From positions 1 through 62,417 of the forward strand of contig CAIUCV010000022.1 in assembly GCA_903897805.1 (NCBI GenBank): DNA of 62,417 nt, written 5' to 3'. The stretch comes from Candidatus Yanofskybacteria bacterium. GTDB lineage: Bacteria; Patescibacteriota; Minisyncoccia; 2-02-FULL-40-12; IGHO2-01-FULL-4-A. The notes below the pieces were generated by a model that was given only the letters and a program-made list of their open reading frames with translations, was not told the DNA's origin and ran no database searches. This document shows, in pieces, positions 16,471 through 60,229 of the stretch (within the stretch, counting starts at the first letter, position 1; the number at the start of each line of letters is the position of its first letter). Both the position numbers and the translations under genes were made by a program.

Positions 16471-17122
16471 AATACTTTTCTTTATAAAAATGTATTAATT
16501 TTTCAACTTCTGGAAGGCATTGAGGGTAGCCGGCTCCCACCTTTGTTCTTTGCTGAACATCTTTAAGGGTAAGAGCGCCTTCAATGACCGCCTCCTCAAT
16601 ATCGGCTTCGGTAACTTTGGTGAAGGGGTCAATAATCCGCGAACCCTCTATCATTATCCGGTCATACTGGCTGGTTTTTTTGAACCAATTGTTGATGGCG
16701 GCTCGCAGGGCTTTATCGCCCAAAACCGAGCAATGGATTTTGCGGTCGGGCAAACCGCCGAGCCGCTTGATAATATCCTGCGGTTTGATTTTCATTGCTT
16801 TGTCCAATTTCATCCCGCCTTTTTCAGTTGCCATTACCGAAAGCGCGGAAGTCGCGGCAATGGCGCTGGCGCAGCCGAAAGTCCGCCATTTACAGGAGGT
16901 TATTCTGTCTTTTTTCTGGTTTATTTTTAGCCACATTCTCATCACATCGCCGCATGCTGGACTGCCGACAATTCCTTCGGCGTCAAATTCCGATTTTTTG
17001 GGATCGCACGCCAGAAAATTCCGCGGCTTAAAAAAATGGTTTTTGACGGCTTTAGAATAAACCCACTTTGCGCCGGTAAATTTATTCACAATATCCGATT
17101 TGTACTTTTTTATCTTTCTCAT
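16454..17122 (-). CDS. nifU: NifU/IscU-type Fe-S scaffold with a BFD-like 2Fe-2S domain
   Basis: GSPACGDVM, FGCASAIA and HCSVL scaffold cysteines. The C-terminal domain has GAGYPQC. Confidence 0.85.
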   Translation of the reverse strand: MRKIKKYKSDIVNKFTGAKWVYSKAVKNHFFKPRNFLACDPKKSEFDAEGIVGSPACGDVMRMWLKINQKKDRITSCKWRTFGCASAIAATSALSVMATEKGGMKLDKAMKIKPQDIIKRLGGLPDRKIHCSVLGDKALRAAINNWFKKTSQYDRIMIEGSRIIDPFTKVTEADIEEAVIEGALTLKDVQQRTKVGAGYPQCLPEVEKLIHFYKEKYFGQDK

Positions 17123-33260: not shown

Positions 33261-33303
33261 ACATGTCTTTCCCTTTTCAAGGGCGGGGTGTTAAAATATT
33301 TAT

Positions 33304-46656: not shown

Positions 46657-46740
46657 AACTAAATTATATCAAAAATGAAAGGCAAATTCAATTGTTTGCC
46701 AAGTCCAATTAAAGGTGTTACGCTTTTGATTACTAACGGG

Positions 46741-47916
46741 ATGGAAATCAAAGAACAAATAAATTCGCCTGACTTTTCAATGAAGGACCTGCTTGCCAAG
46801 TCCGAATTTGACTTGCCGAAAGTCGGCCAGGTTTTGACCGGCGAGATTATAGGCATCAGCAAAAATTCGGTCCTGATTGACTTGGGCGCGCTTGGCACGG
46901 GGATAATTTATCCCGGGGAATTTTATGACAATCCCAATCTGCAAAAAGCCCTCAAGGCGGGCCAGCAGGTCTCGGCAATCCTATTGGACCTTGAAAACGA
47001 GGAGGGTTATCGCGAGCTTTCGCTAAGACAAGCCCAGATGACCACGGCTTGGCAAGATATTAAAAATAAAAAGGAGAGCGGCGAGATCATTGACACTAAA
47101 GTGATCAACATAAACAAGGGGGGGCTGATAGTAGAAATAAACGGCATTCAAGGATTCCTGCCCCTGTCGCAACTGCTGGCGGAACATTACCCGAAAGTTG
47201 AAGGCGGCGACACGGCGAAAATCGTGCAGGCGCTTCAAAAATTCCGCAATCAAGACATTAAAGTCAAAATCATAGATTTTTCGGAAGGCGATAACAAACT
47301 TATAGTTTCAGAAAGAGCGATCACCGACACCCAGCTGAAAGAAGAAATAGCAAAACTTAAAATCGGCGATGTTGTTGATGCTGAAATCACAGACGTTACC
47401 GATTTCGGGGCATTCGCGCTGATAGGATCCCCCGCCGCATCCCAAACGGACGTTACGGCGGAACAGAAATTACTCTTGGAGGAGGGCCGAGAAACCGGTG
47501 GCAGAGGGAAAATTGAAGGACTCATTCATATTTCGGAGATTGATTGGAAGCTTATTGAAAACCCCCGCGATTTTTTGCAAGCCGGCCAAATCGTGAAAGC
47601 AAAAATAGTAAACATCGAGGGTAATAAGGTCTCGTTGTCACTCAAGGCGTTAAAGCCGGACCCCTGGGAAAAGATCGAAGAAAAATATACGGTAGGACAA
47701 ACGATAAACGGAGATATCGCCAAAATAACCAATTATGGGGTGCTGGTCCAACTGGGCGAGGAAATCTATGGTCTGGTGCCGGTGTCAGAATTTGGAGACA
47801 AAAAACCCGGCGAATCATTAAAGATCGGCGACAAACTGAACGTAGCTATCGTCTCAATTGACCCGAAAGAGCACAAATTACTCTTAACTCTTCAAGAAGA
47901 AAAAAATGACAAATAA
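46741..47916 (+). CDS. rpsA: ribosomal protein S1 (four S1 domains)
   Basis: Repeated S1 OB-fold motifs (GQVLTGEIIGI, GEIIDTKVINI, GDVVDAEITDV, GQTINGDIAKI). Start taken at the ATG at 46741. Confidence 0.85.
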   Translation: MEIKEQINSPDFSMKDLLAKSEFDLPKVGQVLTGEIIGISKNSVLIDLGALGTGIIYPGEFYDNPNLQKALKAGQQVSAILLDLENEEGYRELSLRQAQMTTAWQDIKNKKESGEIIDTKVININKGGLIVEINGIQGFLPLSQLLAEHYPKVEGGDTAKIVQALQKFRNQDIKVKIIDFSEGDNKLIVSERAITDTQLKEEIAKLKIGDVVDAEITDVTDFGAFALIGSPAASQTDVTAEQKLLLEEGRETGGRGKIEGLIHISEIDWKLIENPRDFLQAGQIVKAKIVNIEGNKVSLSLKALKPDPWEKIEEKYTVGQTINGDIAKITNYGVLVQLGEEIYGLVPVSEFGDKKPGESLKIGDKLNVAIVSIDPKEHKLLLTLQEEKNDK

Positions 47917-49013: not shown

Positions 49014-50393
49014 CTATAGACTGATCACGGTACTAATCTGGCCCGGAATCAGAGAATCCGCAAACGGCCTGAAGACATCCATCGCCAACCGTTTGGATTC
49101 TTGAGTACCGTGAGTTGCCACGATTTTCTCAAGTTTTTTCCCTCGCCGGCTGATGATTTTCTTCACCATCTCAACCGTTTCCCCCAGCCCGCCATGAGCG
49201 GAGAGATGAAAATGGCAAGCACCGCATTTTACTTCATATCTCTTCTTTATGTTGCCTTGTTCGTCTTCCAACACGACGTGGGTAACACGACCAGTTTCTT
49301 TTCTTTTCTCAATCTTCTGTAGCAACTTCTCCATTGTACACCCGGGCACAAGCCACGAGGTGGCGACAAACTCAAAGTTCGGATTTTCCAGACCTTCCTC
49401 AAGATAATATCTGACCGGCCCGCCATCGCCGAAACCGGCAGGGGTTACGATAACCAGCGGCCCGCCGTTCGCAAGCAATTTCTCTCTTTGGGCATTACCG
49501 CCTTCAATGAACTCCACGTCTTCAAGAGAAAAATCCTTGTCACGGGGCGACCATCGGTTTTCTTTGAAAGTTCTGAACATCCTAACACCGCTACCATCGG
49601 CATAGACGGGTCTGATGCCGGCTTTGGCCAAGGCCAGAGCGACGTTCTGCTCCCGGCCAACGGCAAAAGCAGCGATGATCACAACTTTCTTTTCTGTTAA
49701 GGACTCGCCGACACGATTTACTAACCGCCCCATTTCCAAATCGTAATCCAATCGGGTTAGGGACGGGTTGGTCAAATCGGTCACGGCAATTATGTCAGGC
49801 AGCCATGAATCGGGAATTCCGTCGGGCAGTGAACTACTGCCGACGACTTCCTGTTCGTGCCAGCCCATGTCCCCGCAAAAAAGAATCTTTTTGCCCGAAG
49901 GCATTTTAATAATCAGAAACAGCGCGCCGGGAATGTGGCCAGCCGCACCCGTGAAAGCCCGAACGCCGGGCAGAATTTCAAATTCCCCAAAGGGAATATT
50001 TTTCAGCATCTCGGCGGTTCTGTTAATTGAAGAATGAAAATCGCTACCGACGCCGCGACACCACGTTTCATACAGAACCGCGGGCAGAATAGCATTCGTC
50101 TGGGGCGAGCCGTAAATTGGCGCTCCTTCGGCGAAAAGGTTATTCTCCGAGGCAAGACCGACACAACCCACATGGTCAAGATGGGCATGAGTCAGAACCA
50201 GCGCCGAGAATTTCAACCCTTCTGATTTCATCAAAGAAAAATCCGGGAATCCGTATCTGCCTCTCGGCAATAATTCAAGACCGCAGTCCACTCCAATGGC
50301 TTGGTCTCCGATCTGGAGCGCCACAGAGGATGGACCTAGGCCGTCATTTTTATTTAACGAACTGCCTCCAATGTAAAGTAACCTTTCGCTCAT
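49014..50393 (-). CDS. beta-CASP family MBL-fold nuclease
   Basis: HAHLDH motif, later CGDMG, HLSAHGG and ATHG motifs in beta-CASP order. SD AAGGAG lies before the ATG at 50393. Confidence 0.75.
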   Translation of the reverse strand: MSERLLYIGGSSLNKNDGLGPSSVALQIGDQAIGVDCGLELLPRGRYGFPDFSLMKSEGLKFSALVLTHAHLDHVGCVGLASENNLFAEGAPIYGSPQTNAILPAVLYETWCRGVGSDFHSSINRTAEMLKNIPFGEFEILPGVRAFTGAAGHIPGALFLIIKMPSGKKILFCGDMGWHEQEVVGSSSLPDGIPDSWLPDIIAVTDLTNPSLTRLDYDLEMGRLVNRVGESLTEKKVVIIAAFAVGREQNVALALAKAGIRPVYADGSGVRMFRTFKENRWSPRDKDFSLEDVEFIEGGNAQREKLLANGGPLVIVTPAGFGDGGPVRYYLEEGLENPNFEFVATSWLVPGCTMEKLLQKIEKRKETGRVTHVVLEDEQGNIKKRYEVKCGACHFHLSAHGGLGETVEMVKKIISRRGKKLEKIVATHGTQESKRLAMDVFRPFADSLIPGQISTVISL

Positions 50394-50419
50394 TTCTCTC
50401 CTTTCTCTTGTTTTTGAGA

Positions 50420-50570
50420 GGTGAATAGTATCTTCTAGCACCGTTGAAAGGGTGGATTGCATGGTCGCCGAGCAGTATAATATCTCATCACTGCGAGGCG
50501 AATCCACGCTTTCAACGGAAGGCAGTCCGCTCGCTGGGCGGATAAATGGTGATAGAAGATACTATTCACC
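50420..50570 (-). promoter_or_regulatory. 151-nt palindromic leader in the 5' UTR of the beta-CASP gene
   Basis: Perfect 18-bp arms GGTGAATAGTATCTTCTA (50420-50437) and TAGAAGATACTATTCACC (50553-50570). Inner arms 50439-50460 / 50498-50518. A 32-nt bulge lies on one arm. Confidence 0.6.
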
Positions 50571-50598
50571 GAGCCTAGTTTTTAATGGACTTTCTGTC

Positions 50599-50627
50599 AT
50601 TTTAGCATACCTATTGACATAGGTCAA
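50599..50627 (-). promoter_or_regulatory. near-consensus sigma70 promoter for the beta-CASP gene
   Basis: On the minus strand: TTGACC (50627-50622), 17-nt spacer, TAAAAT (50604-50599). Confidence 0.6.
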
Positions 50628-50642
50628 GGGTTTTGCTATAAT
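50614..50642 (+). promoter_or_regulatory. consensus sigma70 promoter for the high-GC operon
   Basis: TTGACA, 17-nt spacer, TATAAT. Its spacer overlaps the -35 of the divergent promoter. Confidence 0.7.
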
Positions 50643-50709
50643 CAAAGTGGATGATGGAAAGCGCATCAGCTGAGCGCTTTTCTCATATCTTTCACAAAGG
50701 AGGCCAGAA

Positions 50710-51702
50710 ATGGCCAGCAACCAGAACCCGTCGACGAAAGCCGGCGAAACCGAAATCATCACTGCCCGCCGCGAGGCGGCAGCAAAGCTACTTCCCCTAT
50801 TCGGCGGAACAACCGCCGATGGGAAAGAAGCCGTGGGAGTGTTCCACACCCACGGCATCGCGGCCGTAATCGGCTCCGGTGCCGAAAACAAGAAACTTGT
50901 GGACGAACTGCGGAGCAATCCGCACGCTAAGACACTGGCAGTTATTGCCGCGGCCCGCGGCAACAAGAACTTCTCGCCGGCGCTGGTTGCGGAACTCTTT
51001 TCCCGACCCGAAGTGGACGAGGACAATGACTGGTTCGCCAAGGTTTTCTTGGGCGGGCTGGCCGAGATCTTTGACGCAACTGGTGTCGCCCTGATACTAC
51101 CGCCCAGCCAAGCCGGGTTGGACATGGTTCGCGGCGCATACAACGTCGTCAGCCACCTTTCCGAGGAGGAAAGGAAAAAGCTCGGCCTCTGCGAGGCCGA
51201 CGAAGCCCCCCGCCGCCAACTGGCGGTGGATTTGATGGCCATCCTCGATGAGGAGAAGCCGGCTCCGCTGACTCCGGCTCAGCAGTTGTACCGCTGGGCA
51301 GTACGGAAGTGGAATGCTCGGCAGGTCCGGCGGGATGTGAATGCTGCCGCCAATGATGCCGCTGCGGCTCTGCCGTCGGCGACGCCAGCCCCCGAGCCGG
51401 CCCCGGCACCTGCCGGACCGGCCATTCCCGACCTCACTGCCCTCACCGGCGGCGACAAGTCTCTGGCCAGGGTGCCCTGGGGAGTTAAGAAGGTTGCCGT
51501 GCCCCCGGCCGCCCCGCCGGCCGAGGCGCCCAAGCCCGCCGCTCCCACGGCGGAGGACGAGGACCGCGAGCTCGTGCTCGCAGCCATTCAAAAGGCAGCG
51601 GATAGCGGAGACGTTCCCGCGAAAGCCTTCCTCAAAGTGAAGGGTGAGAGGGCTACCATAGCCGAGATGACGGCTTTTGCCACCCGCAAGGGCCTTCTCT
51701 AA
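50710..51702 (+). CDS. ORFan protein 1 (330 aa) of the high-GC island
   Basis: SD AAAGGAGG. 61 G+C in the first 100 nt, GC3-rich codons. PAPEPAPAPAGPA linker. No motif recognised. Confidence 0.7.
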   Translation: MASNQNPSTKAGETEIITARREAAAKLLPLFGGTTADGKEAVGVFHTHGIAAVIGSGAENKKLVDELRSNPHAKTLAVIAAARGNKNFSPALVAELFSRPEVDEDNDWFAKVFLGGLAEIFDATGVALILPPSQAGLDMVRGAYNVVSHLSEEERKKLGLCEADEAPRRQLAVDLMAILDEEKPAPLTPAQQLYRWAVRKWNARQVRRDVNAAANDAAAALPSATPAPEPAPAPAGPAIPDLTALTGGDKSLARVPWGVKKVAVPPAAPPAEAPKPAAPTAEDEDRELVLAAIQKAADSGDVPAKAFLKVKGERATIAEMTAFATRKGLL

Positions 51703-51781
51703 CGCTTTCCGCCCCCGCCCTTTTGACGACAACGCCAAAAGGGCGGGGCGCTCGACCTGTTCTTTCTGACAACTTGACTCC

Positions 51782-51816
51782 GACCCACGGTCCGCCTGCC
51801 GTGGGTCTCTTTTTTT
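51782..51816 (+). terminator. intrinsic terminator
   Basis: GACCCACGG-loop-CCGTGGGTC followed by TCTTTTTTT. A second GC hairpin lies at 51712-51749. Confidence 0.75.
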
Positions 51817-51833
51817 GTCCAAAACACCAGCCC

Positions 51834-51862
51834 TTTACAAAGCCCTTATTTTGATATATAAT
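51834..51862 (+). promoter_or_regulatory. near-consensus sigma70 promoter
   Basis: TTTACA, 17-nt spacer, TATAAT. SD GAAGGAGA lies before the ATG at 51904. Confidence 0.65.
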
Positions 51863-51903
51863 ATAACTAAGGCTTTGATTTACATACACAGAGAAGGAGA
51901 CCC

Positions 51904-53373
51904 ATGAAAGAAGAAGCCGCTGTCGCCAAGCGCGATGGCGAGGAAGAAACCAGACGAAAAGAAGGCAACGAGAGCCAACTTGTAACGGCTCTCGCCGAAA
52001 TCTTGGGGTCACCCGACCCCGAGACTGTCTTCCTAGATGCCGTCAGTAACGGTGTCGTCCCAGACGATGCTTGTCTGGAACTCGCCGAGCACCTCGGTGA
52101 GTTGGTCAAAGCTGTGAACTTTGACAACCGCGTTGAGATTGTCTTCGCTCTCCACGAGGGCGGGGCGATCTCCGGAAAGACCGAGCAGTACCTCTTGCTT
52201 GCCATTTTGGAAATGGATGAGCAGGAGGAGGGTTGGGCTACAGACGATCCCGAAATCACAATTCAAACGCCAACGTTTGAATCCCCCGCTCCGGCGCTCC
52301 AAGCACCGCTGGCAAATCCTGTTGCCGACCTCATCAGGTCGGCGGCCGAACTGCAAACGCAGTTCGGTACTGCCACTGCTGTGCCAGAGGAGAAACTCTC
52401 CGAAATCCGGCAAGCGGTCGGGAAATTGGCGGAGGAGGAATTTAGTTCTCTCCGTCAAATCCTCGGCTCGGCGATCCTCGCCCAAGCTGAGGTTCCGGCT
52501 GCAGAGCGAACGGTTGATGTCGCCGCTAGTTTAGACATCGTGGGAATCCTCCTCGGCCAGAGGCAGACAGAGCTGACCGCTGCCGCATTCGCTGTTTACG
52601 AGGCCTTGGTTCGTGAGGGCTTCCGCTTGACCCATCGCAATGAGTTTGACCGCCCGTTGATGACGGTCAGCTCAATCACTTTGCTCCGGAACCGTTTCCA
52701 AAGGTGGCTGGATTCACACGAGCCCGGTCTCGGCGTAGACGAATTGGTTTTGGCCCAAAGAGCTAATGCTACGCTTGAGAATTTTTTGCTGGCCGCCGCG
52801 GACGACTACATCAAAGCAACTATTCGCCGCGACCACGCAACTCGGTTACGCGAGCGAATCATCTCCTCCCATATCCGCATCCTAGACGAGGTCAACGAGG
52901 AGCTGATCGCCGCCCAACCGGCAACTAAGGAGGAGGCCCTTCAGCAAGTTCAGGACAACCTCCACGCGAAGCGGACCGAACTCGCTTCCGAGCTCCGGGC
53001 CGCAGGTTCCGCAATCCTCGGTGAGGCCGAGGCGGTGATCCGGCGGGTTCTTGACCTTCACTCGGCAAATACCGCTTTGCGGCACGAATTGGCCGAGTTG
53101 GAAGCCAACGATTACGACCCGCTATCCCAGCGGCCAATACTCTTGGGCCGTGACAAGCAGTTGGCCTACTTCGAGCTTGAGCGGAAGGAACTTGATTCCA
53201 TCCGACTTGAGCTGGAAACGGCCCTGAAGGAAGGGCCTGATGCCAACCGTAACGGCGACCGAAAAAAGCTTCAGATCCTGTCGGTCATCACGGCCGGCAA
53301 GCTTCAGGAGCTTGACCAATTGATCGCGGGTCTTCGGCCCGCACCGACAGTACTGGAGGTTCGTCATGGCTAA
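51904..53373 (+). CDS. ORFan protein 2 (489 aa), acidic and helix-rich
   Basis: High-GC coding frame. Long Ala/Glu/Leu/Arg segments suggest coiled coil. No catalytic motif recognised. Confidence 0.7.
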   Translation: MKEEAAVAKRDGEEETRRKEGNESQLVTALAEILGSPDPETVFLDAVSNGVVPDDACLELAEHLGELVKAVNFDNRVEIVFALHEGGAISGKTEQYLLLAILEMDEQEEGWATDDPEITIQTPTFESPAPALQAPLANPVADLIRSAAELQTQFGTATAVPEEKLSEIRQAVGKLAEEEFSSLRQILGSAILAQAEVPAAERTVDVAASLDIVGILLGQRQTELTAAAFAVYEALVREGFRLTHRNEFDRPLMTVSSITLLRNRFQRWLDSHEPGLGVDELVLAQRANATLENFLLAAADDYIKATIRRDHATRLRERIISSHIRILDEVNEELIAAQPATKEEALQQVQDNLHAKRTELASELRAAGSAILGEAEAVIRRVLDLHSANTALRHELAELEANDYDPLSQRPILLGRDKQLAYFELERKELDSIRLELETALKEGPDANRNGDRKKLQILSVITAGKLQELDQLIAGLRPAPTVLEVRHG

Positions 53374-54607
53374 AAACGCCGACCGCAAGCAGAATAAGCC
53401 TGCCGCCGCCGTCAAAGCAACAGGCAAGGGCAAAAAAGAGCGAGAACCAGTAAACCGCAAAGAGCGCCGGGAATTGGGTAAGACAAGGGCCGCCAAAAAG
53501 GCGGCTGGAGCCAAGTCCGCTCCGCCAGTCCACGAGCCGGTTGGGCTTACCCTCGCCCAGCTTGAGGCCTCGGGGCTTACCACCACGAAACAGTCAGCCG
53601 GCCCAACCTTCGAGCAAGCCCTGCTTGAGGTAATCGCCGACCAGGCCCGGCAATTCGAATCCACCGAGCCGGTTTCTCTGCCGGCCACGCTCAACCCAGA
53701 AGTCCGTATTTTCATCAGCGGGCAGACTTACACGCTCGCTGATTACGAGGCAGTTGAGGAGCCGTTTGGATCTACCGCTAGCCGCAAGGTGGTGGCAGCC
53801 GAGATCCACTCTCTTCTCAAAAAGACCGGGCTCATTTTCAATGCATATCGCGAGTCCGGTACCATCGCGGCACAGTTGGCCGCCGGGGAGACCTTCGAGA
53901 AAGAACCAGAAGATTCGCCTCTCAAACTCCAGCTCGCTGAAGTCGTCCTCACTGACGACCCAGCGGCTGTTGGGGACTTTCTTGAGGAGGTCTGGGGTAG
54001 AGTGGTGGAGCTTCAGCTCATCGCAGGGTCGTTTGAACCTGAGAGTGAATTGGAGAAATCCGCTCGGCTCGGCCTCGTTGACGAGGCCACAGCTGACCGT
54101 CTCAAAAGGGCGGTGACTGAAGAAGCCATCCGGCTTGACCTTTCCCAGCGGCTTGCGGGACTGACCGTGAGCGCCACCACACCGACAGCGGAGGTTGATG
54201 AGACCTTTGCCGTCATCATCGCCGAGGCCGCGCAGGCAGCCAAGGTTCAACGGCGCGAGCGCGCCACCTTCCGCCAGACGCTGTCGCAGAGATTGCGAGG
54301 ACGGAAAGAGCGTGAGGGCCAGCGAGTTTCTTCTAAGTCATCGGAGGAATCCGGCGACGAGGAATTTGTCCAGTTCCTCGCGTCCCATCGAGAAGAACCG
54401 GGCGCGAAACAAGCCCTGCTTGCCCTCCATCTCGAGGCGGAAATAGCCGCCGCCGAGAAGCGCTGGGCGGATCTGAAATCCCGTCTGGCCGCCGGGGCCA
54501 GCCACCCCGAAACCACCGTTGCACAGAACGCCACGGCAATGAAGGATCTGCTGGGCGCCTTAGCCCAGATCGGAGCCCTTCATCAACAGCTTGAAGCGCT
54601 GGGCTAG
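53366..54607 (+). CDS. ORFan protein 3 (413 aa) with a Lys/Arg/Ala-rich N-terminal tail
   Basis: ATGGCTAA overlap with ORF 2, and GGAGG SD. N-terminus KQNKPAAAVKATGKGKKE...AAKKAAGAK. Confidence 0.7.
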   Translation: MAKNADRKQNKPAAAVKATGKGKKEREPVNRKERRELGKTRAAKKAAGAKSAPPVHEPVGLTLAQLEASGLTTTKQSAGPTFEQALLEVIADQARQFESTEPVSLPATLNPEVRIFISGQTYTLADYEAVEEPFGSTASRKVVAAEIHSLLKKTGLIFNAYRESGTIAAQLAAGETFEKEPEDSPLKLQLAEVVLTDDPAAVGDFLEEVWGRVVELQLIAGSFEPESELEKSARLGLVDEATADRLKRAVTEEAIRLDLSQRLAGLTVSATTPTAEVDETFAVIIAEAAQAAKVQRRERATFRQTLSQRLRGRKEREGQRVSSKSSEESGDEEFVQFLASHREEPGAKQALLALHLEAEIAAAEKRWADLKSRLAAGASHPETTVAQNATAMKDLLGALAQIGALHQQLEALG

Positions 54608-54653
54608 CCCCAGACCCAGAGCTGCTGGCCTCAAACTCAAGTTCTTCCTATCC

Positions 54654-54698
54654 CCCTGCACGGACCGCGCATTTTGCGGACCGTGCAGGGCTTTTTTT
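54654..54698 (+). terminator. intrinsic terminator
   Basis: CCCTGCACGGACCGC-loop-GCGGACCGTGCAGGG (one mismatch) followed by CTTTTTTT. Confidence 0.8.
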
Positions 54699-54767
54699 GT
54701 CAAACTTATACGAGGGTGCAAAGTAAAATTTGCCTACCTTCATTTTTCGTGTTAAACTTATACGACT

Positions 54768-56588
54768 ATGAAATCTCTAATCAAATACGTTCTAATTGTC
54801 TTTCTGGTACTGCTTTTGGTTTCCGGATTGATCGCCGCTTTTGGCTATCCGTTTTCCCAAAATAAAACCGAAGTTTCTCTGACCCAGCTGGTCAGCCAGA
54901 TAAACAGCTCGCAGGTCAAAGGAATTATCGTCCAAGGCGACATCATAGAAATAACCCTGAATAACGACAGCAAGGAACTGACTAATAAGGAACCCAACGT
55001 TTCCATCGCCGAAATCTTGGTTAATCTGGGGGCAGACAAAACCAAACTGAATCAGATTAGCGTGGACGTAAAAAGCGATAGCGGTTTTACTTATTATCTG
55101 GTAAATTTCCTGCCGATTATTCTTACTTTTCTTTTTATCATCTTTATTTTCTGGTTTATGTTCCGCCAAACCCAGCGCGGCACGATGCAGGCATTCAGTT
55201 TCGGTAAAACAAAAGCGCGCCTCGCCGGCGGAGACGACGGCAAGAAAAAAGTGACTTTTGACGATGTCGCTGGCTTGACCGAGGCCAAGGAAGAGATTTC
55301 AGAGGTGGTGGAGTTTCTAAGCGACCCAAAGAAGTTCCAGAAGCTGGGGGCGAGAATCCCCCGCGGCATTTTGCTCATCGGCGCTCCAGGAACGGGCAAA
55401 ACTTTGCTTGCCAAGGCAGTAGCAAACGAAGCCAACGTTCCTTTCTATTTCGTCTCCGGTTCGGAATTCGTTGAAATGTTCGTCGGCGTCGGCGCCAACC
55501 GCGTGAGAGACACTTTTGAAATGGCTAAAAAAACCGCGCCGTCAATAATCTTTATAGATGAAATAGACGCCGTCGGGCGCCACCGCGGAGCGGGACTCGG
55601 GGGCGGACACGATGAGCGAGAACAAACGCTCAACCAAATTTTGGTTGAAATGGATGGTTTCGACACTAACGATGCCGTCATTGTTATGGCAGCGACTAAC
55701 CGCCCTGATATCTTAGATCCGGCCTTGCTTCGTCCAGGCAGATTTGACAGGCGCGTAACGCTGGACGAACCGTCCATGAAAGACCGTGAAGCCATATTAA
55801 AAATACACGCGCTGGACAAACCGCTCGCCAAAGACGTTAATTTTAAGGTGGTTGCTGAAAGAACTCCGGGCTTCTCCGGCGCCGACCTGGCCAATCTTTT
55901 AAATGAGGCGGCGATACTCGCGGTCCGCAAAAACCAAAAAGAGATCATTCAATTAAATCTTCTGCAGGCAATTGAAAAGGTTATGCTCGGTCCCGAGCGC
56001 CGTTCACACATACTCACTAAAAAAGAAAAAGAAATTGCCGCGTATCACGAAGCGGGCCACGCGCTGGTGGCAGTATTTCTACCGTATACCGACCCAATAC
56101 ATAAAATTTCCGTTGTTTCGCGCGGCCAGGTGGGTGGATACACGCTTAAACTTCCGACAGAAGACAGGCATCTTCGTTCCAAATCAGAATTTGAATCGGA
56201 ACTAGCTGTCTTACTCGGCGGTTACGCCGCAGAACGGCTGGTGTTCAACGAACTCACCACCGGCGCCGCAAACGATTTGAAAATAGCTTCTGAACTTGCA
56301 CGTAAAATGGTCACTCAATTTGGCATGTCCGATAAACTGGGACCGGTTACATTCGGCGAAAAAGAGGAGCTGGTATTTTTGGGAAGGGAAATCGCTACCG
56401 AAAAAAATTACTCAAACGAAATTGCCTTCCAAATAGACAGCGAGATCAAAGCGTTGATCTCCAGGGCCCTAAAAAAAGCAAAGGAGACCCTGGCTAAAAA
56501 GATGGCGACTCTTACCAAAATAGCCACCGAACTTATTACTAAAGAAACCCTTGAGCAGAAAGAGTTTTACGCTCTTCTGAAAACATAA
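54768..56588 (+). CDS. ftsH: ATP-dependent zinc metalloprotease FtsH
   Basis: GAPGTGKT Walker A, AAA+ SRH region, HEAGHA zinc motif. 37 G+C in the first 100 nt. Confidence 0.95.
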
Positions 56589-56678: not shown

Positions 56679-56750
56679 GCGTCCGTAGCTCAACGGTGGA
56701 GCAAGGTCCTTATAAGACCGAGGTTCCTGGTTCGAATCCAGGCGGACGCA
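56679..56750 (+). tRNA. tRNA-Ile (anticodon UAU)
   Basis: Acceptor GCGTCCG/CGGACGC, D-arm GCTC/GAGC, loop CTTATAA, T-arm CCTGG-TTCGAAT-CCAGG. The 27-43 pair is an A-G mismatch. Confidence 0.8.
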
Positions 56751-56936
56751 CAAATAGAATTGGTTTGGTGTTTCAGCGCCAAACTAATTCTATGCGGCTG
56801 GATTTGAACCCAACGAAGGGGTCGGGGAACGATGATGGTTCCCCGATGTGGAAGCATTGAAACCGCAAGGTTTCAAAGAGCGAACGCGAGTCCACTTGGT
56901 TGAGCGTTCGCGAGTTCGATTCCAGGCGGACGCACA
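56751..56936 (+). other. tRNA-linked structured element ending in a duplicate of the tRNA-Ile 3' end
   Basis: GTTCGAtTCCAGGCGGACGCACA (56914-56936) matches 56730-56752 at 22 of 23 positions. Hairpins at 56754-56793, 56824-56844 and 56859-56874 (GCAA loop). Confidence 0.6.
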
Positions 56937-57926: not shown

Positions 57927-58343
57927 ATGATTACGCTTCAAACATTCAACTCAAAAATGGCATCGGCGTTAAACTTACCCGACATTAGGCCGGGCATGAC
58001 CATTAAGGTTCACCAAAAAATAAAAGAGGGCAATAAAACCCGGGTACAGATTTTTGAAGGGATAGTTATCGCCCGTAAACACGGTTCCGGGCCAAGCGCC
58101 ACCATTACTGTCAGAAAAATATCAAATGGTATTGGTGTTGAAAGGATTTTCCCCCTGCACCTGCCCACAATAGAAAAGTTTGAGATTGTGAAAACTTCAA
58201 AAGTCCGTCGGGCAAAACTTTACTATCTCCGGGGAAAAACCGCCCGCGAAACCAGGAAAAAGACAAAACTCATAGAAACAAAGATCTCGGCTCCCCAAAT
58301 TGAAACCGAGGAGGCAACTCCAACTCAAGAACCTCAACAATAA
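57927..58343 (+). CDS. rplS: ribosomal protein L19
   Basis: [38 protein letters not shown]-terminal extension. Start taken at the ATG at 57927. Confidence 0.9.
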
Positions 58344-59940
58344 ATCCGTATGCGGACGTGGTGGAACTAGGCAGACACGCTACCTTGAGGTGGTAGTGGG
58401 CGCAAGCCCGTGGAGGTTCGAGTCCTCTCGTCCGCACCATAGTAGATACAGAGGAAGAAACAGAATTTTTTTGATGGACTGCCGCAAGGGCAGTCCATTG
58501 ATTTTGAGCCACGCCGCGCGCTTCGCGCGATTGTAGTGTGAGGTTGGAGCCGAAGATTTTTTGGAGGGAGTGTTTTTTGGAGGGGAGGTCGTCGGTTTTT
58601 AGTATTTCGCCAAGCGTTTGCGCGTCTTTAATCCAATCTCGCAGGGGTTGGAGCCAAGCGGTGGCGTTCCGTTCAAGACGGGCTATTTGCCCCTCTACCG
58701 ACTTTCGCTCGGACATAAGCGCGCGCTTCCGCACAAGGTAAGCGTCGCGGTCTATGTCCTGTTCAACATAGACGTCGGTTAGGCGGGCAATACGGGTGTC
58801 TATATCCGCCAAAGTAGCCCGTAGCTCGCGGACGGACGCCACCGCCACGCTTCGGGCTTCCCGCTCGTCTTTGTCGGCCATAAGGAGCATTTCTTTGCCC
58901 CATTCTTGGGGCAGGACAAAGCGGGATAGCAGATCGGATAGTTGGACATTTAGCACCTCCTCGCGGACGTAGGACTGCGAGCAGGGGCCGCGCTTCTTCG
59001 TACAGCGATAGTAAATATATCGGTGGACGTTGCCGTTCTTCTGCCGTTTCGTTATCGCCTCGGCGGTAATGGAACACCCGCACTCGCCACACCGGAGGAG
59101 GCCACATAGAGCTTGCGGGTCTTTGTGTGCTTTCTGCCTCCTGCCTCGCATTTCTATAGCCGTCTGAACTCTGTCAAAGAGTTGCTTGGAAATAATCGGC
59201 GTGTGCGTTCCGTGATGTATCTCTCCGGCGTATTCAAAATCGCCGTAGTAAAAAGTGTCGGTAAGGACGCGCTTCGCTCTGTTCTTTGACCACGCCTTAC
59301 CGCCTCCGCTACCGCTCCGGCTTCCGGTGCGTATGCCGTTGTCGGAAAAAAAGTTGGCGATGTCTTCAAAGCGCGACTGGCCTTCGGCGTATAACTCAAA
59401 GGCACGGACGACGATAGGAGCTTTGTGCCTATCAACATCGTGCCGCTTGGTGTGCGGATTGTTTATATAACCGACACGCGCGGGGCCGGGATACTCTCCA
59501 CGCCGCGCCTTCGCCCTCAATCCGCGCCGCGTGTTATACGCCAAGTCGCGGACGTATTGTGTCGCCATGCCAAACTCAACGGCCATCAAAAGCACGCTGT
59601 CTTTTGAGTAGTAGCTACGCTCCGGCGTTAGTATGTGTTGGATTGCTCCCTGTTGGAGCAACCAACTAACTTGCCCGTTATCAACCGGATTGCGACCCAA
59701 GCGATCAAGTTTCCAACAGACAACGCCTTGCGCTTCGCCGCGCTGTATCCGTTCAACCATTTCGTTGAAGTGAGGACGGCCCGGCGTTTTCGCCGATTTC
59801 TTTTCTATAAACTCCGCCGCAATCTCCAAACCCTCGCGCTGGGCGAGCGAGCGCAATTCAGATAATTGCGATTCTATGGAGAGGACTTGTTTGTCCTCAA
59901 CATCGGTGCTTTTGCGGGCGTAGATAAAATATGTGGTCAT
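58270..59940 (-). CDS. large serine recombinase; the annotated 3' end runs antisense through tRNA-Leu and the rplS tail
   Basis: [19 protein letters not shown] catalytic-Ser domain, recombinase domain, zinc ribbon CGECGCS...YYRC, coiled coil. The last ~56 codons (RTRGLEPP...) are antisense tRNA, so the true C-terminus is uncertain. Confidence 0.8.
58352..58439 (+). tRNA. tRNA-Leu (anticodon GAG)
   Basis: Type II tRNA. Anticodon stem CTACC/GGTAG, loop TTGAGGT, long variable arm. CCA is encoded. Confidence 0.9.
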
Positions 59941-60026
59941 AGAATTGCTGAAAGGCGTTTTATTTGCTAATATCGTAATATAAGAGATGACGCTATTATA
60001 GCACAATACTTATATTATAGTATAAC

Positions 60027-60224
60027 ATGTCCACAATAGGCAAAAACATAAAACGGCTTCGCCGAGCAAAAGGAATATCGCAAGACAAGCTATCAAAACT
60101 TGCCGATGTCTCGCTTCAAACCATTGTTAAAATGGAGCTTGACGACAAACCGAATCCAACCATTGAGACAGTTCAGAAAATCTCCAAGGCGTTGGGTATT
60201 AGTATTGACGATTTGATGAAGTAA
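60027..60224 (+). CDS. XRE-family HTH regulator (possible controller protein of the R-M unit)
   Basis: IKRLRRAKGISQDKLSKLADVSLQTIVKME HTH. Ends 5 nt before mod. Confidence 0.8.
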   Translation: MSTIGKNIKRLRRAKGISQDKLSKLADVSLQTIVKMELDDKPNPTIETVQKISKALGISIDDLMK

Positions 60225-60229
60225 TTTTT

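What the first reader, a model, noticed from the sequence alone, without database searches (positions are those of the whole stretch)
50710..54607. Compositionally foreign three-gene ORFan operon, the best candidate for an undescribed system
Three plus-strand ORFs of 330, 489 and 413 aa run at about 60% GC. I counted 61 G+C in the first 100 nt of ORF 1, against 37 in ftsH next door, with GC3-rich codons. Yet they sit in AT-rich, host-like intergenic DNA with near-consensus promoters, strong SD sites and clean intrinsic terminators. ORFs 2 and 3 overlap by ATGGCTAA. None of the three has a signal peptide, TM helix, Walker motif or nuclease/peptidase signature that I can see. ORF 1 has a PAPEPAPAPAGPA-type linker. 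ORF 2 is acidic with long Ala/Glu/Leu/Arg helices. ORF 3 opens with a Lys/Arg/Ala tail (AAKKAAGAK) like H1/HupB-type DNA-binding tails of high-GC Gram-positives. The serine recombinase 4 kb downstream has the same ~61% GC, hinting at a common foreign source. An actinobacterial host of an episymbiont is one possible donor, but that is speculation.
Basis: partly seen in the sequence, partly recalled or inferred. Interest (0 to 1): 0.8.

Follow-up and report, generated by a model that had tools for sequence, protein, structure and literature searches.

The report
Native hairpin-packed GC-rich gene trio
Three strongly promoted genes of unknown function that looked like imported DNA are an old, native feature of an uncultivated groundwater bacterial lineage, and their high G+C comes with an unusual density of hairpins, some of them conserved, inside the coding sequence.

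Summary
Three + strand ORFs (330, 489 and 413 aa) sit at 59.8% GC in a 45.5% GC window, with near-consensus promoters, strong SD sites, terminators and an ATGGCTAA overlap. No known domain, solved structure or fold matches them.

The "foreign island" reading is not supported. The trio occupies the same slot (rpsA-Nudix-beta-CASP(-)-trio-ftsH) in every related contig that extends beyond the trio. Its synonymous divergence equals that of ftsH, and dN/dS is 0.2-0.65. It has no phage, plasmid, viral-contig or GTDB-representative relatives. The GC excess recurs everywhere, including a clade whose backbone GC3 is about 0.33 while the trio stays at 0.57-0.71.

In the window, part of the excess is amino-acid composition (Ala 13-20%). 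The rest goes with a newly found property: the coding sequences are packed with hairpins. With protein sequence and codon usage fixed, gene-level z is -3.9 to -9.3, against about 0 for ftsH. Five ORF2 hairpins are conserved with compensatory changes, some of which force amino-acid replacements. In relatives, GC-rich palindromic mini-elements are inserted in frame in ORF2.

Protein function remains unknown. My best guess is abundant all-alpha cytoplasmic proteins made from unusually structured messages, possibly linked to the divergent beta-CASP ribonuclease.

The parts
50614..50642 (+). Promoter of ORF1: TTGACA-17-TGnTATAAT, 12 of 12 with an extended -10
   Evidence: An identical 12/12 consensus lies upstream of ORF1 in 10 of 11 non-redundant lineages, and 11/12 in the other.
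50710..51702 (+). ORF1, 330 aa. N-terminal conserved domain of about 200 aa, a variable Pro/Ala-rich linker, and a conserved C-terminal domain of about 45 aa ending in KGLL. GC 0.64.
   Evidence: Alignment A2 has 25 homologues. Only 22 representatives exist among 1.84 billion proteins. dN/dS is 0.20-0.65. Hairpin density is 9.1 per kb. Synonymous-shuffle z is -6.2.
51713..51748 (.). GC-rich perfect hairpin just after the ORF1 stop (CCCCGCCCTTTTG...CAAAAGGGCGGGG). Its outer stem resembles the hairpin mini-elements found in relatives.
   Evidence: A similar copy lies at 33249-33288.
51782..51817 (+). Intrinsic terminator of the ORF1 transcript: a 10-bp stem followed by a T-run
51834..51862 (+). 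Promoter of ORF2-ORF3: TTTACA-17-TATAAT, 11 of 12
   Evidence: An 11-12/12 match is present upstream of ORF2 in all 18 lineages checked.
51904..53373 (+). ORF2, 489 aa, acidic and all-alpha. A five-helix N-terminal domain (residues 22-111), a disordered linker (112-137), and a large helical domain (139-477).
   Evidence: Alignment A1 has 33 homologues. The AlphaFold2 model has pLDDT 80. No fold match in PDB or BFVD. Synonymous-shuffle z is -8.2.
52060..52125 (+). Three adjacent conserved hairpins inside ORF2: 52060-52078, 52079-52103 and 52105-52125
   Evidence: Alignment A4: 96.5% of cells are paired, against 22-40% when partners are slid. Five pairs have changes on both sides, giving 13 compensatory cells (0 of 500 shuffles reach this). 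RNAalifold predicts the same hairpins.
52324..52367 (+). Two further conserved hairpins inside ORF2 (52324-52343 and 52346-52367). The second encodes the near-invariant motif ELQxQFG.
   Evidence: Alignment A5: 91% of cells are paired, against 15-49% when slid. Six pairs have changes on both sides, reached by 1 of 500 shuffles.
53366..54607 (+). ORF3, 413 aa, translationally coupled to ORF2 by the 8-nt overlap ATGGCTAA. Basic disordered N-terminal tail, then long helices.
   Evidence: Alignment A3 has 21 homologues. The AlphaFold2 model has pLDDT 61. The 8-nt overlap is conserved in relatives. Synonymous-shuffle z is -3.9.
54654..54698 (+). Intrinsic terminator of the ORF2-ORF3 transcript: a long GC-rich hairpin followed by T7
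   Evidence: Equivalent hairpins of -19 to -35 kcal/mol plus a T-run follow ORF3 in 13 of 14 lineages.
49014..50507 (-). Divergently transcribed beta-CASP metallo-beta-lactamase ribonuclease (aCPSF1/RNase J-like). The true start is probably the Met at about 50396, which gives about 460 aa as in relatives. It is a possible functional partner.
   Evidence: Its pairing with the ORF1-like gene is kept in L034 although ftsH has moved. GC3 and hairpin excess are intermediate.
50599..50627 (-). Promoter-like site on the minus strand (TTGACC-17-TAAAAT, 10 of 12) facing the beta-CASP gene, back to back with the ORF1 promoter

Best explanation
SHOWN.
1. The trio is a native, vertically inherited cassette restricted to one lineage. 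It has two transcription units (ORF1 alone, and ORF2-ORF3 translationally coupled). Each has a consensus-grade sigma-70 promoter, a strong SD site and a strong terminator, and this design is conserved in all relatives.
2. The proteins are real: dN/dS is below 1 and they are conserved along their full length. They evolve fast, are essentially all-alpha with disordered Pro/Ala or basic segments, and have no detectable relative of known function or fold.
3. The GC excess is not a leftover of transfer. It recurs in every lineage regardless of host GC. It has two parts: an Ala/Glu/Leu/Arg-rich, Ile/Lys/Asn/Tyr-poor protein composition, and a constraint or process at the nucleic-acid level that fills the coding sequence with short GC-rich hairpins.
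4. The placement of synonymous codons creates far more base-pairing than the same protein with the same codon usage would have.
5. Five hairpins in the 5' third of ORF2 are conserved with compensatory substitutions. Hairpins in ORF1 and ORF3 turn over between lineages.

INFERRED (most likely mechanism).
These are very highly expressed messages selected for dense internal structure. GC-rich hairpins would extend their functional lifetime against the cell's RNase J/CPSF-type decay machinery, whose beta-CASP nuclease is encoded divergently next door and stays paired with the cassette through rearrangement. The products would be abundant cytoplasmic helical proteins: ORF2 and ORF3 as a roughly 1:1 complex carrying a basic, nucleic-acid-binding tail, and ORF1 as a separately dosed partner with a tethered C-terminal docking domain. 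Their molecular role is unknown; an RNA- or nucleoid-associated scaffold is my guess.
For: Native and vertical.
- Same slot in all informative loci.
- Four-fold-site identity within the main clade is 0.63-0.69 for ORF2 and ORF3 and 0.66-0.68 for ftsH. dS is 0.6-0.9 for both.
- ORF2 and ORF3 distance matrices follow the backbone clades.
- No mobile-element, viral, plasmid or GTDB-representative relatives.

Coding.
- dN/dS is 0.20-0.65, against 0.04-0.07 for ftsH and 0.23-0.38 for Nudix.

High-expression design conserved.
-.

GC excess conserved and independent of the host.
- Trio GC3 is 0.51-0.80 in all loci.
- In five independent contigs of a low-GC clade, ftsH GC3 is 0.29-0.34 and the trio 0.57-0.71, with sharp steps at gene borders.
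- Distant lineages L034 and L035 show ORF1-like GC3 of 0.69-0.78, against 0.30-0.53 for neighbours.

Amino-acid share.
- Host codon usage applied to the trio's proteins predicts GC 0.54-0.59, against 0.58-0.64 observed. Ala is 13-20% against 6.7%.

Hairpins.
- MFE z against dinucleotide shuffles is -1.3 to -2.3 in the window and down to -3.6 in relatives, against about 0 for ftsH and rpsA, in four clades.
- Stems of 7 bp or more: 4.8-9.1 per kb, against 1.3-4.0.
- Synonymous-codon shuffles give gene-level z of -6.2/-8.2/-3.9 (window) and -6.6/-9.3/-5.0 (L006), against -1.2/+1.1 for ftsH.
- ORF2 and ORF3 are the two most extreme of 55 genes in the window.

Covariation.
-. In ORF2, 72% of pairs are kept when both sides changed, against 22% in the slid control.

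Beta-CASP link.
-, plus intermediate GC3 and structure signals.
Against: - No expression data were available. High expression is inferred from promoter, SD and terminator quality only.
- RNA-level and DNA-level constraint are not separated. Antisense strands are also over-structured. Sense-specific G·U and antisense-type A·C mismatches are balanced overall (122 against 122), and only ORF2's own hairpins lean to G·U, 97 against 56.
- GC outside the stems is still 0.55-0.61, so hairpins do not explain all of the excess.
- At four-fold sites in the window itself, the trio barely differs from host genes (0.66 against 0.63).
- ORF1 and ORF3 hairpins show no positional conservation. That fits generic selection for structure, but it fits neutral accretion equally well.
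- A few other genes in the window also have strongly negative z: the recombinase -3.9 and rpsA -3.6.
- The beta-CASP adjacency could be plain synteny.
- ORF1 has two deep allele classes that cut across backbone clades, and dS is mosaic inside ORF2. Recombination therefore also shapes the locus.
- Protein function is a guess. The ORF3 model is of low confidence (pLDDT 61), and ORF1 was not modelled.
Confidence: 0.55

Rival explanations
1. Neutral accretion. The GC-richness and hairpin density are by-products of repeated in-frame insertion of GC-rich palindromic mini-elements, together with template-switch 'quasi-palindrome correction', into fast-evolving tolerant genes. The hairpins have no function. 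Apparent compensatory changes arise in single mutational events.
For: - In relatives, a family of 31-40-nt nested hairpins (CCCCG(T/A)...(T/A)CGGGG) is inserted in frame in ORF2 in both orientations.
- These inserts are 96-100% identical between clades whose ORF2 proteins are about 60% identical.
- 12 of 19 strict matches lie in ORF2.
- 56% of ORF2 inserted segments have z below -2, against 20% of control segments.
- Hairpins in ORF1 and ORF3 turn over rather than being conserved.
- Both strands are over-structured and wobble asymmetry is absent overall.
- The neighbouring beta-CASP gene, transcribed from the other strand, shows a weaker version of the same signal. This fits a regional DNA-level process.
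Against: - The window's own trio holds no intact copy of the element family, yet is as over-structured as the relatives.
- The five ORF2 hairpins sit in a well-folded, conserved protein domain and have been kept across all clades, with several independent compensatory events. Decaying selfish inserts should lose pairing.
- ORF1 and ORF3 have few indel blocks, and those are not hairpins.
- This model does not explain why the locus alone is targeted over such deep time, or why its expression signals are so strongly conserved.
Confidence: 0.25
2. One reading: a recently acquired foreign island from a high-GC donor (for example an actinobacterial host), not yet ameliorated and possibly brought in together with the serine recombinase.
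For: - GC is 59.8% against 45.5%, with sharp borders.
- No homologues of known function.
- ORF1 shows allele classes that are incongruent with the backbone.
Against: - The trio is present in the same slot in every related contig that extends beyond it, including distant ones.
- Its synonymous divergence equals that of the backbone.
- No mobility genes, tRNA or repeats lie at the borders.
- The recombinase is 53% GC and sits at a separate tRNA-Leu site.
- No homologue was found in 185,579 GTDB species representatives, IMG/VR, phage or plasmid collections.
- At four-fold sites the window's trio is host-like (0.66 against 0.63).
Confidence: 0.03
3. A conflict locus: an undescribed anti-phage or host-interaction system. 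Rapid protein evolution, allele shuffling and recombination would reflect an arms race, and recombination-driven GC-biased gene conversion would raise the GC.
For: - The proteins evolve 4-8 times faster than the housekeeping flanks at equal dS.
- ORF1 has two deep allele classes that cut across clades.
- dS is mosaic within ORF2, from 0.05 to 1.6.
- Contigs often break at the locus.
- An adjacent fast-evolving beta-CASP nuclease is distantly similar to Cas14 of type VII CRISPR systems.
Against: - No PADLOC hit for the trio.
- No enzymatic, sensor, ATPase or nuclease domain in the trio.
- dN/dS is below 1 everywhere, and similar to the neighbouring Nudix.
- The cassette is universal and fixed in position among housekeeping genes, unlike the patchy distribution typical of defence systems.
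- Constitutive consensus promoters.
- GC-biased gene conversion in bacteria is usually a small effect and would not create hairpins.
Confidence: 0.08
4. A self-recognising ribonucleoprotein or nucleoid element. The hairpins are cis-acting binding sites for the encoded proteins (basic tail on ORF3). This would give autoregulation, or assembly of the transcript or the DNA segment with its own products.
For: - A dense array of hairpins is conserved in the 5' third of ORF2.
- A basic disordered tail occurs on ORF3, and at the C-terminus of the positional counterpart in L035.
- ORF2 and ORF3 are translationally coupled.
- Both DNA strands are palindromic.
Against: - No sequence motif is shared among the hairpins.
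- No known nucleic-acid-binding fold was detected.
- Hairpins in ORF1 and ORF3 are not conserved in position.
Confidence: 0.07

Closest known systems
Rickettsia palindromic elements (RPEs): selfish palindromic DNA inserted in frame into protein-coding genes (Ogata et al. 2000 and 2002, as summarised in PMC10969869)
   Same: Palindromic repeat elements are inserted in frame in either orientation, adding peptide segments to otherwise functional proteins. Near-identical copies occur in diverged genes.
   Different: The elements here are 31-48 nt, not about 100-150 bp. They are GC-rich nested hairpins. In the DNA surveyed they are concentrated in one gene (ORF2) rather than scattered over many unrelated genes. 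The window's own trio has no intact copy, yet is still hairpin-dense. Some hairpins are conserved with covariation, which is not a feature of RPEs.
[quoted passage not shown]
   Same: Coding DNA with dyad symmetry that encodes amphipathic helical protein segments in proteins of unknown function.
   Different: PARCELs are tandem arrays of a 25-residue motif. They are often in membrane-targeted proteins, are distributed patchily by HGT, and are associated with mobile elements. The trio has no tandem repeats, no membrane-targeting signal and is inherited vertically.
REP/BIME-type extragenic palindromes and other mRNA-stabilising stem-loops (established knowledge of E. coli REP elements)
   Same: Short GC-rich hairpins are associated with strongly expressed transcripts. 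The proposed role is protection of the mRNA from ribonucleases.
   Different: REPs are intergenic or at the 3' end. Here the hairpins lie inside the reading frames at 5-9 per kb and are partly shaped through synonymous codon choice and co-varying amino-acid replacements.
Horizontally acquired genomic island
   Same: Sharp compositional contrast with the flanking DNA, and ORFan content.
   Different: Universal presence in a fixed syntenic slot, the same synonymous age as the backbone, no mobility genes at the borders, no detectable donor, and a compositional contrast that is itself conserved across lineages.
Histone H1 / HupB-type Lys/Ala-rich DNA-binding tails of high-GC Gram-positives
   Same: ORF3 begins with a disordered, strongly basic segment (+12 in 60 residues).
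   Different: No HU/Bac_DNA_binding or other DNA-binding domain is present. The AAKKAAGAK string is specific to the window's copy; homologues have a different basic sequence (KPPKKKGGKEQQPLNREERKK...) without PAKKA-type repeats.

Membership tests
Horizontally acquired genomic island | Composition atypical for the host genome | tested here: met
   GC is 0.598 against 0.455. However, four-fold-site GC is only 0.66 against 0.63 in the window, and about half of the excess is explained by amino-acid composition.
Horizontally acquired genomic island | Patchy presence or absence among close relatives | tested here: not met
   Present in the same slot in every related contig that extends beyond the trio, across backbone FtsH identities from 95% down to 71%.
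Horizontally acquired genomic island | Mobility genes, a tRNA or direct repeats at the borders | tested here: not met
   The borders are a beta-CASP gene and ftsH. Direct-repeat and tandem-repeat scans show nothing flanking. The serine recombinase is 3.7 kb away at tRNA-Leu, at 53% GC.
Horizontally acquired genomic island | Divergence or phylogeny decoupled from the host backbone | tested here: inconclusive
   ORF2 and ORF3 follow the backbone clades, with the same dS as ftsH. ORF1 has two allele classes that cut across clades, and ORF2 has mosaic dS. This indicates recombination within the lineage, not import from outside.
Known anti-phage defence systems (PADLOC models) | A match to a defence-protein model, or a recognisable effector or sensor domain | tested here: not met
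   No PADLOC, Pfam or NCBIfam hit for any of the three proteins.
Phage or plasmid gene cassette | Homologues on viral contigs, phage genomes or plasmids | tested here: not met
   IMG/VR scans with all three profiles found nothing. tblastn of ORF2 against phage and plasmid records found nothing. PHROGs gave no hit, and BFVD gave no fold match.
RPE-like in-frame palindromic elements | Palindromic repeat copies inserted in frame in ORFs | tested here: met
   Met in relatives (ORF2). No intact copy lies inside the window's trio; only a related hairpin lies at 51713-51748, after the ORF1 stop.
RPE-like in-frame palindromic elements | Copies dispersed through many unrelated genes; element length about 100-150 bp | tested here: not met
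   12 of 19 strict matches are in one gene, and the length is 31-48 nt. Only about 255 kb of DNA from the lineage was available, so genome-wide dispersal is not fully testable.
PARCEL | Tandem arrays of a 25-residue amphipathic repeat | tested here: not met
   TRF finds only one 23-nt array in the region, and there are no direct-repeat families of note.
P-loop NTPase (for ORF2, string GGAISGKT) | A conserved Walker A motif in a beta-strand-loop-helix context | tested here: not met
   The Gly of GK[ST] is Glu in most homologues. The model has no beta-strands.
HU/H1-like nucleoid protein (for ORF3) | An HU fold or Lys/Ala/Pro repeat tail conserved across the family | tested here: not met
   No Bac_DNA_binding hit. 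The tail is basic, but its sequence is not a conserved repeat.
Structured functional RNA families (Rfam) | A match to a curated covariance model | tested here: not met
   Only tRNAs reach gathering score in the window. In 50400-54800 there are three chance-level hits with E of 0.2-0.6.
RNase J / CPSF-type beta-CASP ribonuclease (the neighbour at 49014-50507, not the trio) | MBL plus beta-CASP domains, scoring at family level | tested here: inconclusive
   Lactamase_B scores above its cut-off. Beta-Casp scores 20.8 bits against a cut-off of 27.7. aCPSF1 gives E = 1e-19, RNase J 1.7e-6 and Cas14 2.4e-12, all far below the equivalog cut-offs. It is a divergent beta-CASP enzyme whose subfamily is not assigned.
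Coiled-coil cytoskeletal proteins (crescentin, FilP or Scy type) | A long uninterrupted heptad-repeat rod | not tested
   No coiled-coil predictor was run. The AlphaFold2 models show helices of at most about 40 residues packed into bundles rather than a single long rod.

The most novel reading that the evidence does not exclude
The roughly 4-kb segment is a dual-use locus. It would be a coding region that is also selected as a structured nucleic acid. Its dense, partly co-varying hairpins would work together with its own three all-alpha products and the adjacent beta-CASP nuclease. Candidate roles are a self-encoded ribonucleoprotein, an RNA-decay-regulating assembly or a nucleoid-organising assembly, specific to an ultra-small groundwater (probably CPR/Patescibacteria) lineage. 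The structural requirement would be strong enough to dictate amino-acid replacements and to hold local GC up to about 30 points of GC3 above the genome.
Probability: 0.12. Interest if true: 0.85.

Novelty: categorically new. Interest (0 to 1): 0.62.

Why it matters
1. It is a clean counter-example for detecting horizontal transfer from composition. A sharply GC-deviant ORFan block turns out to be ancient, syntenic and vertically inherited, and the deviation itself is the conserved trait.
2. It shows nucleic-acid structure constraining protein-coding DNA at one locus, strongly enough to be seen when the protein and its codon usage are held fixed, and to drive coupled amino-acid changes (Phe/Leu with a Lys codon; Leu to Gln with a Pro codon). 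If this acts on the mRNA, it offers a natural system for studying how very small, slow-growing cells with few ribosomes keep key messages alive.
3. The three proteins are probably among the most strongly expressed in these cells, yet they have no known fold relatives. They are obvious targets for understanding the cell biology of an uncultivated lineage.
4. The in-frame GC-rich hairpin mini-elements extend the Rickettsia "protein-coding palindrome" phenomenon to a new lineage, a new size class and a single-locus pattern.

Tried and rejected
- Domain and family searches of the three proteins, and of every member of their alignments, found nothing above noise. Libraries were Pfam, NCBIfam, PHROGs and PADLOC. 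DUF5788 appeared in 9 of 33 ORF2 members, below its cut-off.
- Profile searches against PDB sequences found nothing.
- Foldseek of the ORF2 model against PDB and BFVD, and of the ORF3 model against PDB, gave a best E of 0.0095, TM below 0.2 and designed helical proteins as top hits. I rejected these as generic helix matches.
- Paralogy among the three families was rejected (hhalign E of 0.06-0.19).
- A remote link between the L035 downstream genes and ORF2/ORF3 was suggestive at best for ORF2 (E = 0.067) and absent for ORF3.
- Both GTDB genome scans found nothing, so I could not name the organism. Cluster names and a search for the assembly accessions in the literature also gave nothing.
- The phage, plasmid and viral-contig origin was rejected.
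- Chimeric assembly as the cause of the GC step in L006 was rejected. Four further independent contigs from other samples show the same step.
- Amino-acid composition alone as the cause of the GC excess was rejected. It explains roughly half in the window and far less in the low-GC clade.
- Translational codon bias of highly expressed genes was rejected. rpsA and rplS have ordinary GC3.
- Gene-wide positive selection was rejected (dN/dS below 1).
- The sense-against-antisense wobble test, meant to decide between RNA-level and DNA-level hairpins, was inconclusive.
- Rfam scans for a known structured RNA found nothing.
- Tandem repeats, as expected for PARCELs, were absent.

Full report
1. THE OBSERVATION

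The region is 59.8% GC and the rest of the window is 45.5%. The hand counts of 61 and 37 G+C in the first 100 nt of ORF1 and ftsH are exact, and the ORF2/ORF3 overlap reads ATGGCTAA.

GC is raised at all three codon positions. GC3 is 0.73/0.64/0.66 in the trio and 0.44-0.55 in neighbours.

A perfect extended -10 promoter (TTGACA-17-TGnTATAAT) precedes ORF1. A terminator follows ORF1. An 11/12 promoter precedes ORF2, and a long hairpin with a T-run follows ORF3. There are therefore two transcription units, not one operon.

None of the three proteins has a TM-like segment. ORF2 is acidic (net -34), and ORF3 opens with a basic tail.

Two details were wrong. The serine recombinase is 53.4% GC, not about 61%. 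ORF2 has a Walker-A-like string, but it is not conserved and lies in an all-alpha protein.

2. NO KNOWN RELATIVES

Pfam, NCBIfam, PHROGs and PADLOC give nothing, whether for the window proteins or for every member of the three family alignments. Profile searches against PDB sequences give nothing.

AlphaFold2 with the family alignment gives a confident all-alpha model for ORF2 (pLDDT 80). It has an N-terminal five-helix domain, a disordered linker and a large helical domain. The ORF3 model has low confidence and is mostly helical (pLDDT 61).

Foldseek against PDB and BFVD returns only generic helical matches, with E of 0.0095 or more and TM below 0.2.

The three families are not paralogues. 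They are small: 26, 34 and 22 clusters among 5.8 billion proteins, all unnamed and metagenomic. An ORF1 profile finds only 22 representatives among 1.84 billion.

3. NOT FOREIGN

Every related contig that extends beyond the trio shows the same order: (gyrA ... MBL) rpsA - Nudix - beta-CASP(-) - ORF1 - ORF2/ORF3 - ftsH (- HAD) - rluA - rplS. The 8-nt ORF2/ORF3 overlap is kept throughout. This holds from relatives with 95% identical FtsH down to those with 43-46% identical ORF2.

In still more distant lineages (FtsH 71%, beta-CASP 40-46%), an ORF1-like gene is still divergently paired with the beta-CASP gene. In L034 this holds even though ftsH-rluA-rplS has been inverted to the other side. In L035 the ORF1-like gene is followed by two overlapping genes, one with a Lys-rich tail. 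Their similarity to ORF2 and ORF3 is at most suggestive.

Within the main clade, four-fold-site identity is 0.63-0.69 for ORF2 and ORF3 and 0.66-0.68 for ftsH, and dS is comparable. The cassette is therefore as old as its surroundings.

No relative exists in IMG/VR, in phage or plasmid records, or in one genome per GTDB species.

The recombinase belongs to a separate element at tRNA-Leu.

4. FAST BUT CONSTRAINED PROTEINS, WITH RECOMBINATION

Where GyrA and FtsH are 93-96% identical to the window, ORF1 is 32-55%, ORF2 59-73% and ORF3 39-57% identical.

| Gene | dN/dS |
|---|---|
| ORF1 | 0.20-0.65 |
| ORF2 | 0.25-0.42 |
| ORF3 | 0.25-0.37 |
| ftsH | 0.04-0.07 |
| Nudix | 0.23-0.38 |

These are real genes under relaxed purifying selection, with no gene-wide positive selection.

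ORF2 and ORF3 follow the backbone clades. ORF1 has two deep allele classes that cut across them. dS inside ORF2 is mosaic, from 0.05 to 1.6 in one close pair. Alleles are therefore exchanged within the lineage.

5. THE GC EXCESS IS ITSELF CONSERVED

Trio GC3 is 0.51-0.80 in all loci.

In one clade the backbone has drifted to GC3 of about 0.33, but the trio stays at 0.57-0.71 and the beta-CASP gene at 0.47-0.52, with steps at gene borders. Five independent contigs from different samples show this, which excludes chimeric assembly.

In the distant lineages, the ORF1-like gene has GC3 of 0.69-0.78 and its neighbours 0.30-0.53.

In the window, host codon usage applied to the trio's amino-acid sequences predicts GC of 0.54-0.59, and 0.58-0.64 is observed. 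Roughly half of the excess is therefore protein composition: Ala is 13-20% against 6.7%, with few Ile, Lys, Asn and Tyr. At four-fold sites the window's trio is nearly host-like (0.66 against 0.63). In the low-GC clade the synonymous component dominates (0.63 against 0.35).

Codon bias of highly expressed genes is not the cause, since rpsA and rplS are ordinary.

6. NEW FINDING: THE CODING SEQUENCES ARE PACKED WITH HAIRPINS

In 120-nt windows, folding energies of the trio lie well below dinucleotide shuffles. Mean z is -1.3 to -2.3, and 33-52% of windows fall below -2. For rpsA, Nudix, ftsH and rluA, mean z is -0.06 to -0.6.

The same holds in three other clades. The antisense strand is usually weaker but also negative, and the beta-CASP gene is intermediate.

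Stems of at least 7 bp occur at 4.8-9.1 per kb in the trio and at 1.3-4.0 per kb in the flanks. The means over relatives are 8.8, 9.1 and 6.3 per kb, against 3.2 for ftsH.

The decisive control is shuffling synonymous codons among identical amino acids, which fixes protein, codon usage and GC3:

| Gene | z, window | z, L006 |
|---|---|---|
| ORF1 | -6.2 | -6.6 |
| ORF2 | -8.2 | -9.3 |
| ORF3 | -3.9 | -5.0 |
| beta-CASP | -3.2 | -2.7 |
| ftsH | -1.2 | +1.1 |

In a coarser scan of 55 genes of the window, ORF2 and ORF3 are the two extremes (-5.2 and -4.8). The other 52 genes have mean -0.44 and sd 1.3. The recombinase (-3.9) and rpsA (-3.6) also lie in the tail.

7. CONSERVED HAIRPINS WITH COMPENSATION IN ORF2

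Three adjacent hairpins at 52060-52125 are present in all 18 distinct sequences.
- 96.5% of cells are paired, against 22-40% when partners are slid.
- Five pairs have changes on both sides, giving 13 compensatory cells, a count reached by 0 of 500 shuffles.
- RNAalifold predicts the same hairpins.

Several compensations couple a synonymous change to an amino-acid replacement:
- Lys-AAA with Phe-TTT becomes Lys-AAG with Leu-CTT (seven sequences).
- Pro CCA>CCT is coupled with Leu CTG>Gln CAG.
- Asp GAC>Gly GGC is coupled with Cys TGT>TGC.
- Ala GCC>Val GTC is coupled with Gly GGC>Asp GAC.

Two more hairpins at 52324-52367 behave alike: 91% of cells are paired against 15-49% when slid, and six pairs have changes on both sides, reached by 1 of 500 shuffles.

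Over all hairpins of the window's ORF2, 72% of pairs are kept when both sides changed, against 22% in the slid control. For ORF1 and ORF3 there is no such signal (39-41% against 34-52%). Their hairpins turn over between lineages while the density stays high.

Caveats. The structures were derived from one of the sequences, the sequences are related, and template-switch mutation could create compensations in one step.

8. RNA OR DNA?

This is undecided. Sense strands are more structured in 9 of 12 comparisons. ORF2's own hairpins contain more G·T than A·C mismatches (97 against 56). Overall the two are balanced (122 against 122), and ORF1 and ORF3 show no bias. GC outside stems is still 0.55-0.61.

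9. PALINDROMIC MINI-ELEMENTS IN RELATIVES

Sporadic in-frame inserts in ORF2 homologues (for example SPVKSPSGDHGVKKEG, CPVAPLEADGTGAP, PIPSASGGATGQAS, GPPNQSLRDATGQV and VKLALPVTGQEV) are encoded by a family of 31-40-nt nested GC-rich hairpins, CCCCG(T/A)...(T/A)CGGGG. They are inserted in either orientation and are 96-100% identical between clades whose ORF2 proteins are about 60% identical. Of 19 strict matches, 12 lie in ORF2.

56% of ORF2 inserted segments have z below -2, against 20% of control segments.

The window's trio has no intact copy. A related hairpin lies just after the ORF1 stop at 51713-51748. The elements were not found on viral contigs.

This resembles the Rickettsia RPEs (PMC10969869), but the elements are much shorter and concentrated at one locus. 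PARCELs (PMC2996958) are excluded because there are no tandem repeats.

10. EXPRESSION DESIGN

The 12/12 extended -10 promoter of ORF1 is present in 10 of 11 lineages. An 11-12/12 promoter precedes ORF2 in all 18. AAGGAGG-type SD sites are present, and strong terminators follow ORF3 in 13 of 14. Very high, constitutive expression is inferred from this, not measured.

11. INTERPRETATION

Shown:
- a native, ancient, lineage-restricted cassette encoding three fast-evolving all-alpha proteins of unknown fold family;
- a GC excess that is a conserved property of the locus;
- a density of hairpins in the coding sequence that exceeds what the proteins and their codon usage require, some of them conserved with covariation.

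Inferred, at about one chance in three: the hairpins act in the mRNA to prolong the life of very abundant messages against RNase J/CPSF-type decay. The beta-CASP nuclease of that type is the conserved divergent neighbour, and it shows a weaker version of the same compositional and structural signature.

The main rival is neutral accretion of GC-rich palindromic elements and template-switch mutation in tolerant genes. A conflict or defence locus, and a self-recognising RNP or nucleoid element, remain possible at low probability. Recent horizontal acquisition is essentially excluded.

The organism could not be named. A group-3b-type [NiFe] hydrogenase, a small housekeeping repertoire and enrichment in 0.1-µm groundwater filtrates point to a Patescibacteria/CPR-like bacterium. 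This is an inference.

12. VERDICT

Its ORFan claim stands and its foreign-origin claim fails. The protein function remains unknown, which limits the score.

Noticed in passing
window 58270-61972: A large serine recombinase (Resolvase + Recombinase + Zn-ribbon) whose listed ORF runs antisense through tRNA-Leu(GAG) at 58352-58439 and into the 3' end of rplS. It is followed by an HTH_3 regulator (60027-60224) and an N6/N4 DNA methyltransferase (60230-61972, GC 0.36). This looks like a separate integrated element at tRNA-Leu. The recombinase is 53.4% GC and is itself over-structured (synonymous-shuffle z -3.9).
   Followed up: partly
relatives: L002 10054-10085, L015 2368-2399 and 3838-3868, L024 4606-4694, L011 4614-4661, and others: A family of 31-40-nt GC-rich nested hairpins, CCCCG(T/A)...(T/A)CGGGG, is inserted in frame in ORF2 homologues in both orientations. 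Copies are nearly identical between clades whose surrounding gene is about 60% identical at the protein level. A few copies lie in intergenic DNA (L001 6835, L011 1136).
   Followed up: yes
window 33249-33288 and 51713-51748: Two similar perfect hairpins, CCCCGCCCTT...AAGGGCGGGG. One lies at the 3' end of the valS-like ORF and one just after the ORF1 stop. They may be REP-like or terminator-like elements of this genome.
   Followed up: no
L002 9590-9716: A MITE-like insert of about 130 nt with 22-nt terminal inverted repeats (TTATCCAGCACCACTTTTACCA) lies in the ORF1-ORF2 spacer of a relative. It accounts for that relative's longer spacer (519 against 201 nt).
   Followed up: no
L032 3616-4503 and L033 231-1118: An rve-family (IS-type) integrase gene is inserted between rpsA and Nudix in two NCBI assemblies of a close relative. 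The otherwise fixed synteny is therefore occasionally hit by IS elements.
   Followed up: no
window 56679-56751: A tRNA-Ile with anticodon UAU, which is uncommon in bacteria, where AUA is usually read by a lysidine-modified CAU tRNA.
   Followed up: no
window 31192-33260: The valS reading frame looks split. The 590-aa ORF matches ValRS models only from model position 93, and a 130-aa ORF overlaps its start. This could be a frameshift, an assembly error or an unusual start.
   Followed up: no
window 12946-14232: A group-3b-type (sulfhydrogenase-like) [NiFe] hydrogenase large subunit, next to further subunit-sized ORFs. It is part of the basis for guessing a CPR/Patescibacteria-like fermentative organism.
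   Followed up: no
loci L008-L026 (metagenome contigs): Most metagenome contigs carrying the trio are shorter than 7 kb and end inside or next to it. This assembly fragmentation fits strain-level microdiversity at the locus.
   Followed up: no
protein P0093 (432 aa): In one distant ORF1-family member, the N-terminal domain is followed by a UvrB/UvrC-type UVR motif instead of the usual Pro/Ala linker and C-terminal domain. This suggests that the C-terminal part is an exchangeable interaction module.
   Followed up: no
window 46675-47916 and 16454-17122: rpsA (z -3.6) and a 222-aa ORF (z -3.3) also show more mRNA structure than synonymous shuffles in the coarse window-wide scan, though rpsA was only -2.0 in the finer test.
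   Followed up: partly
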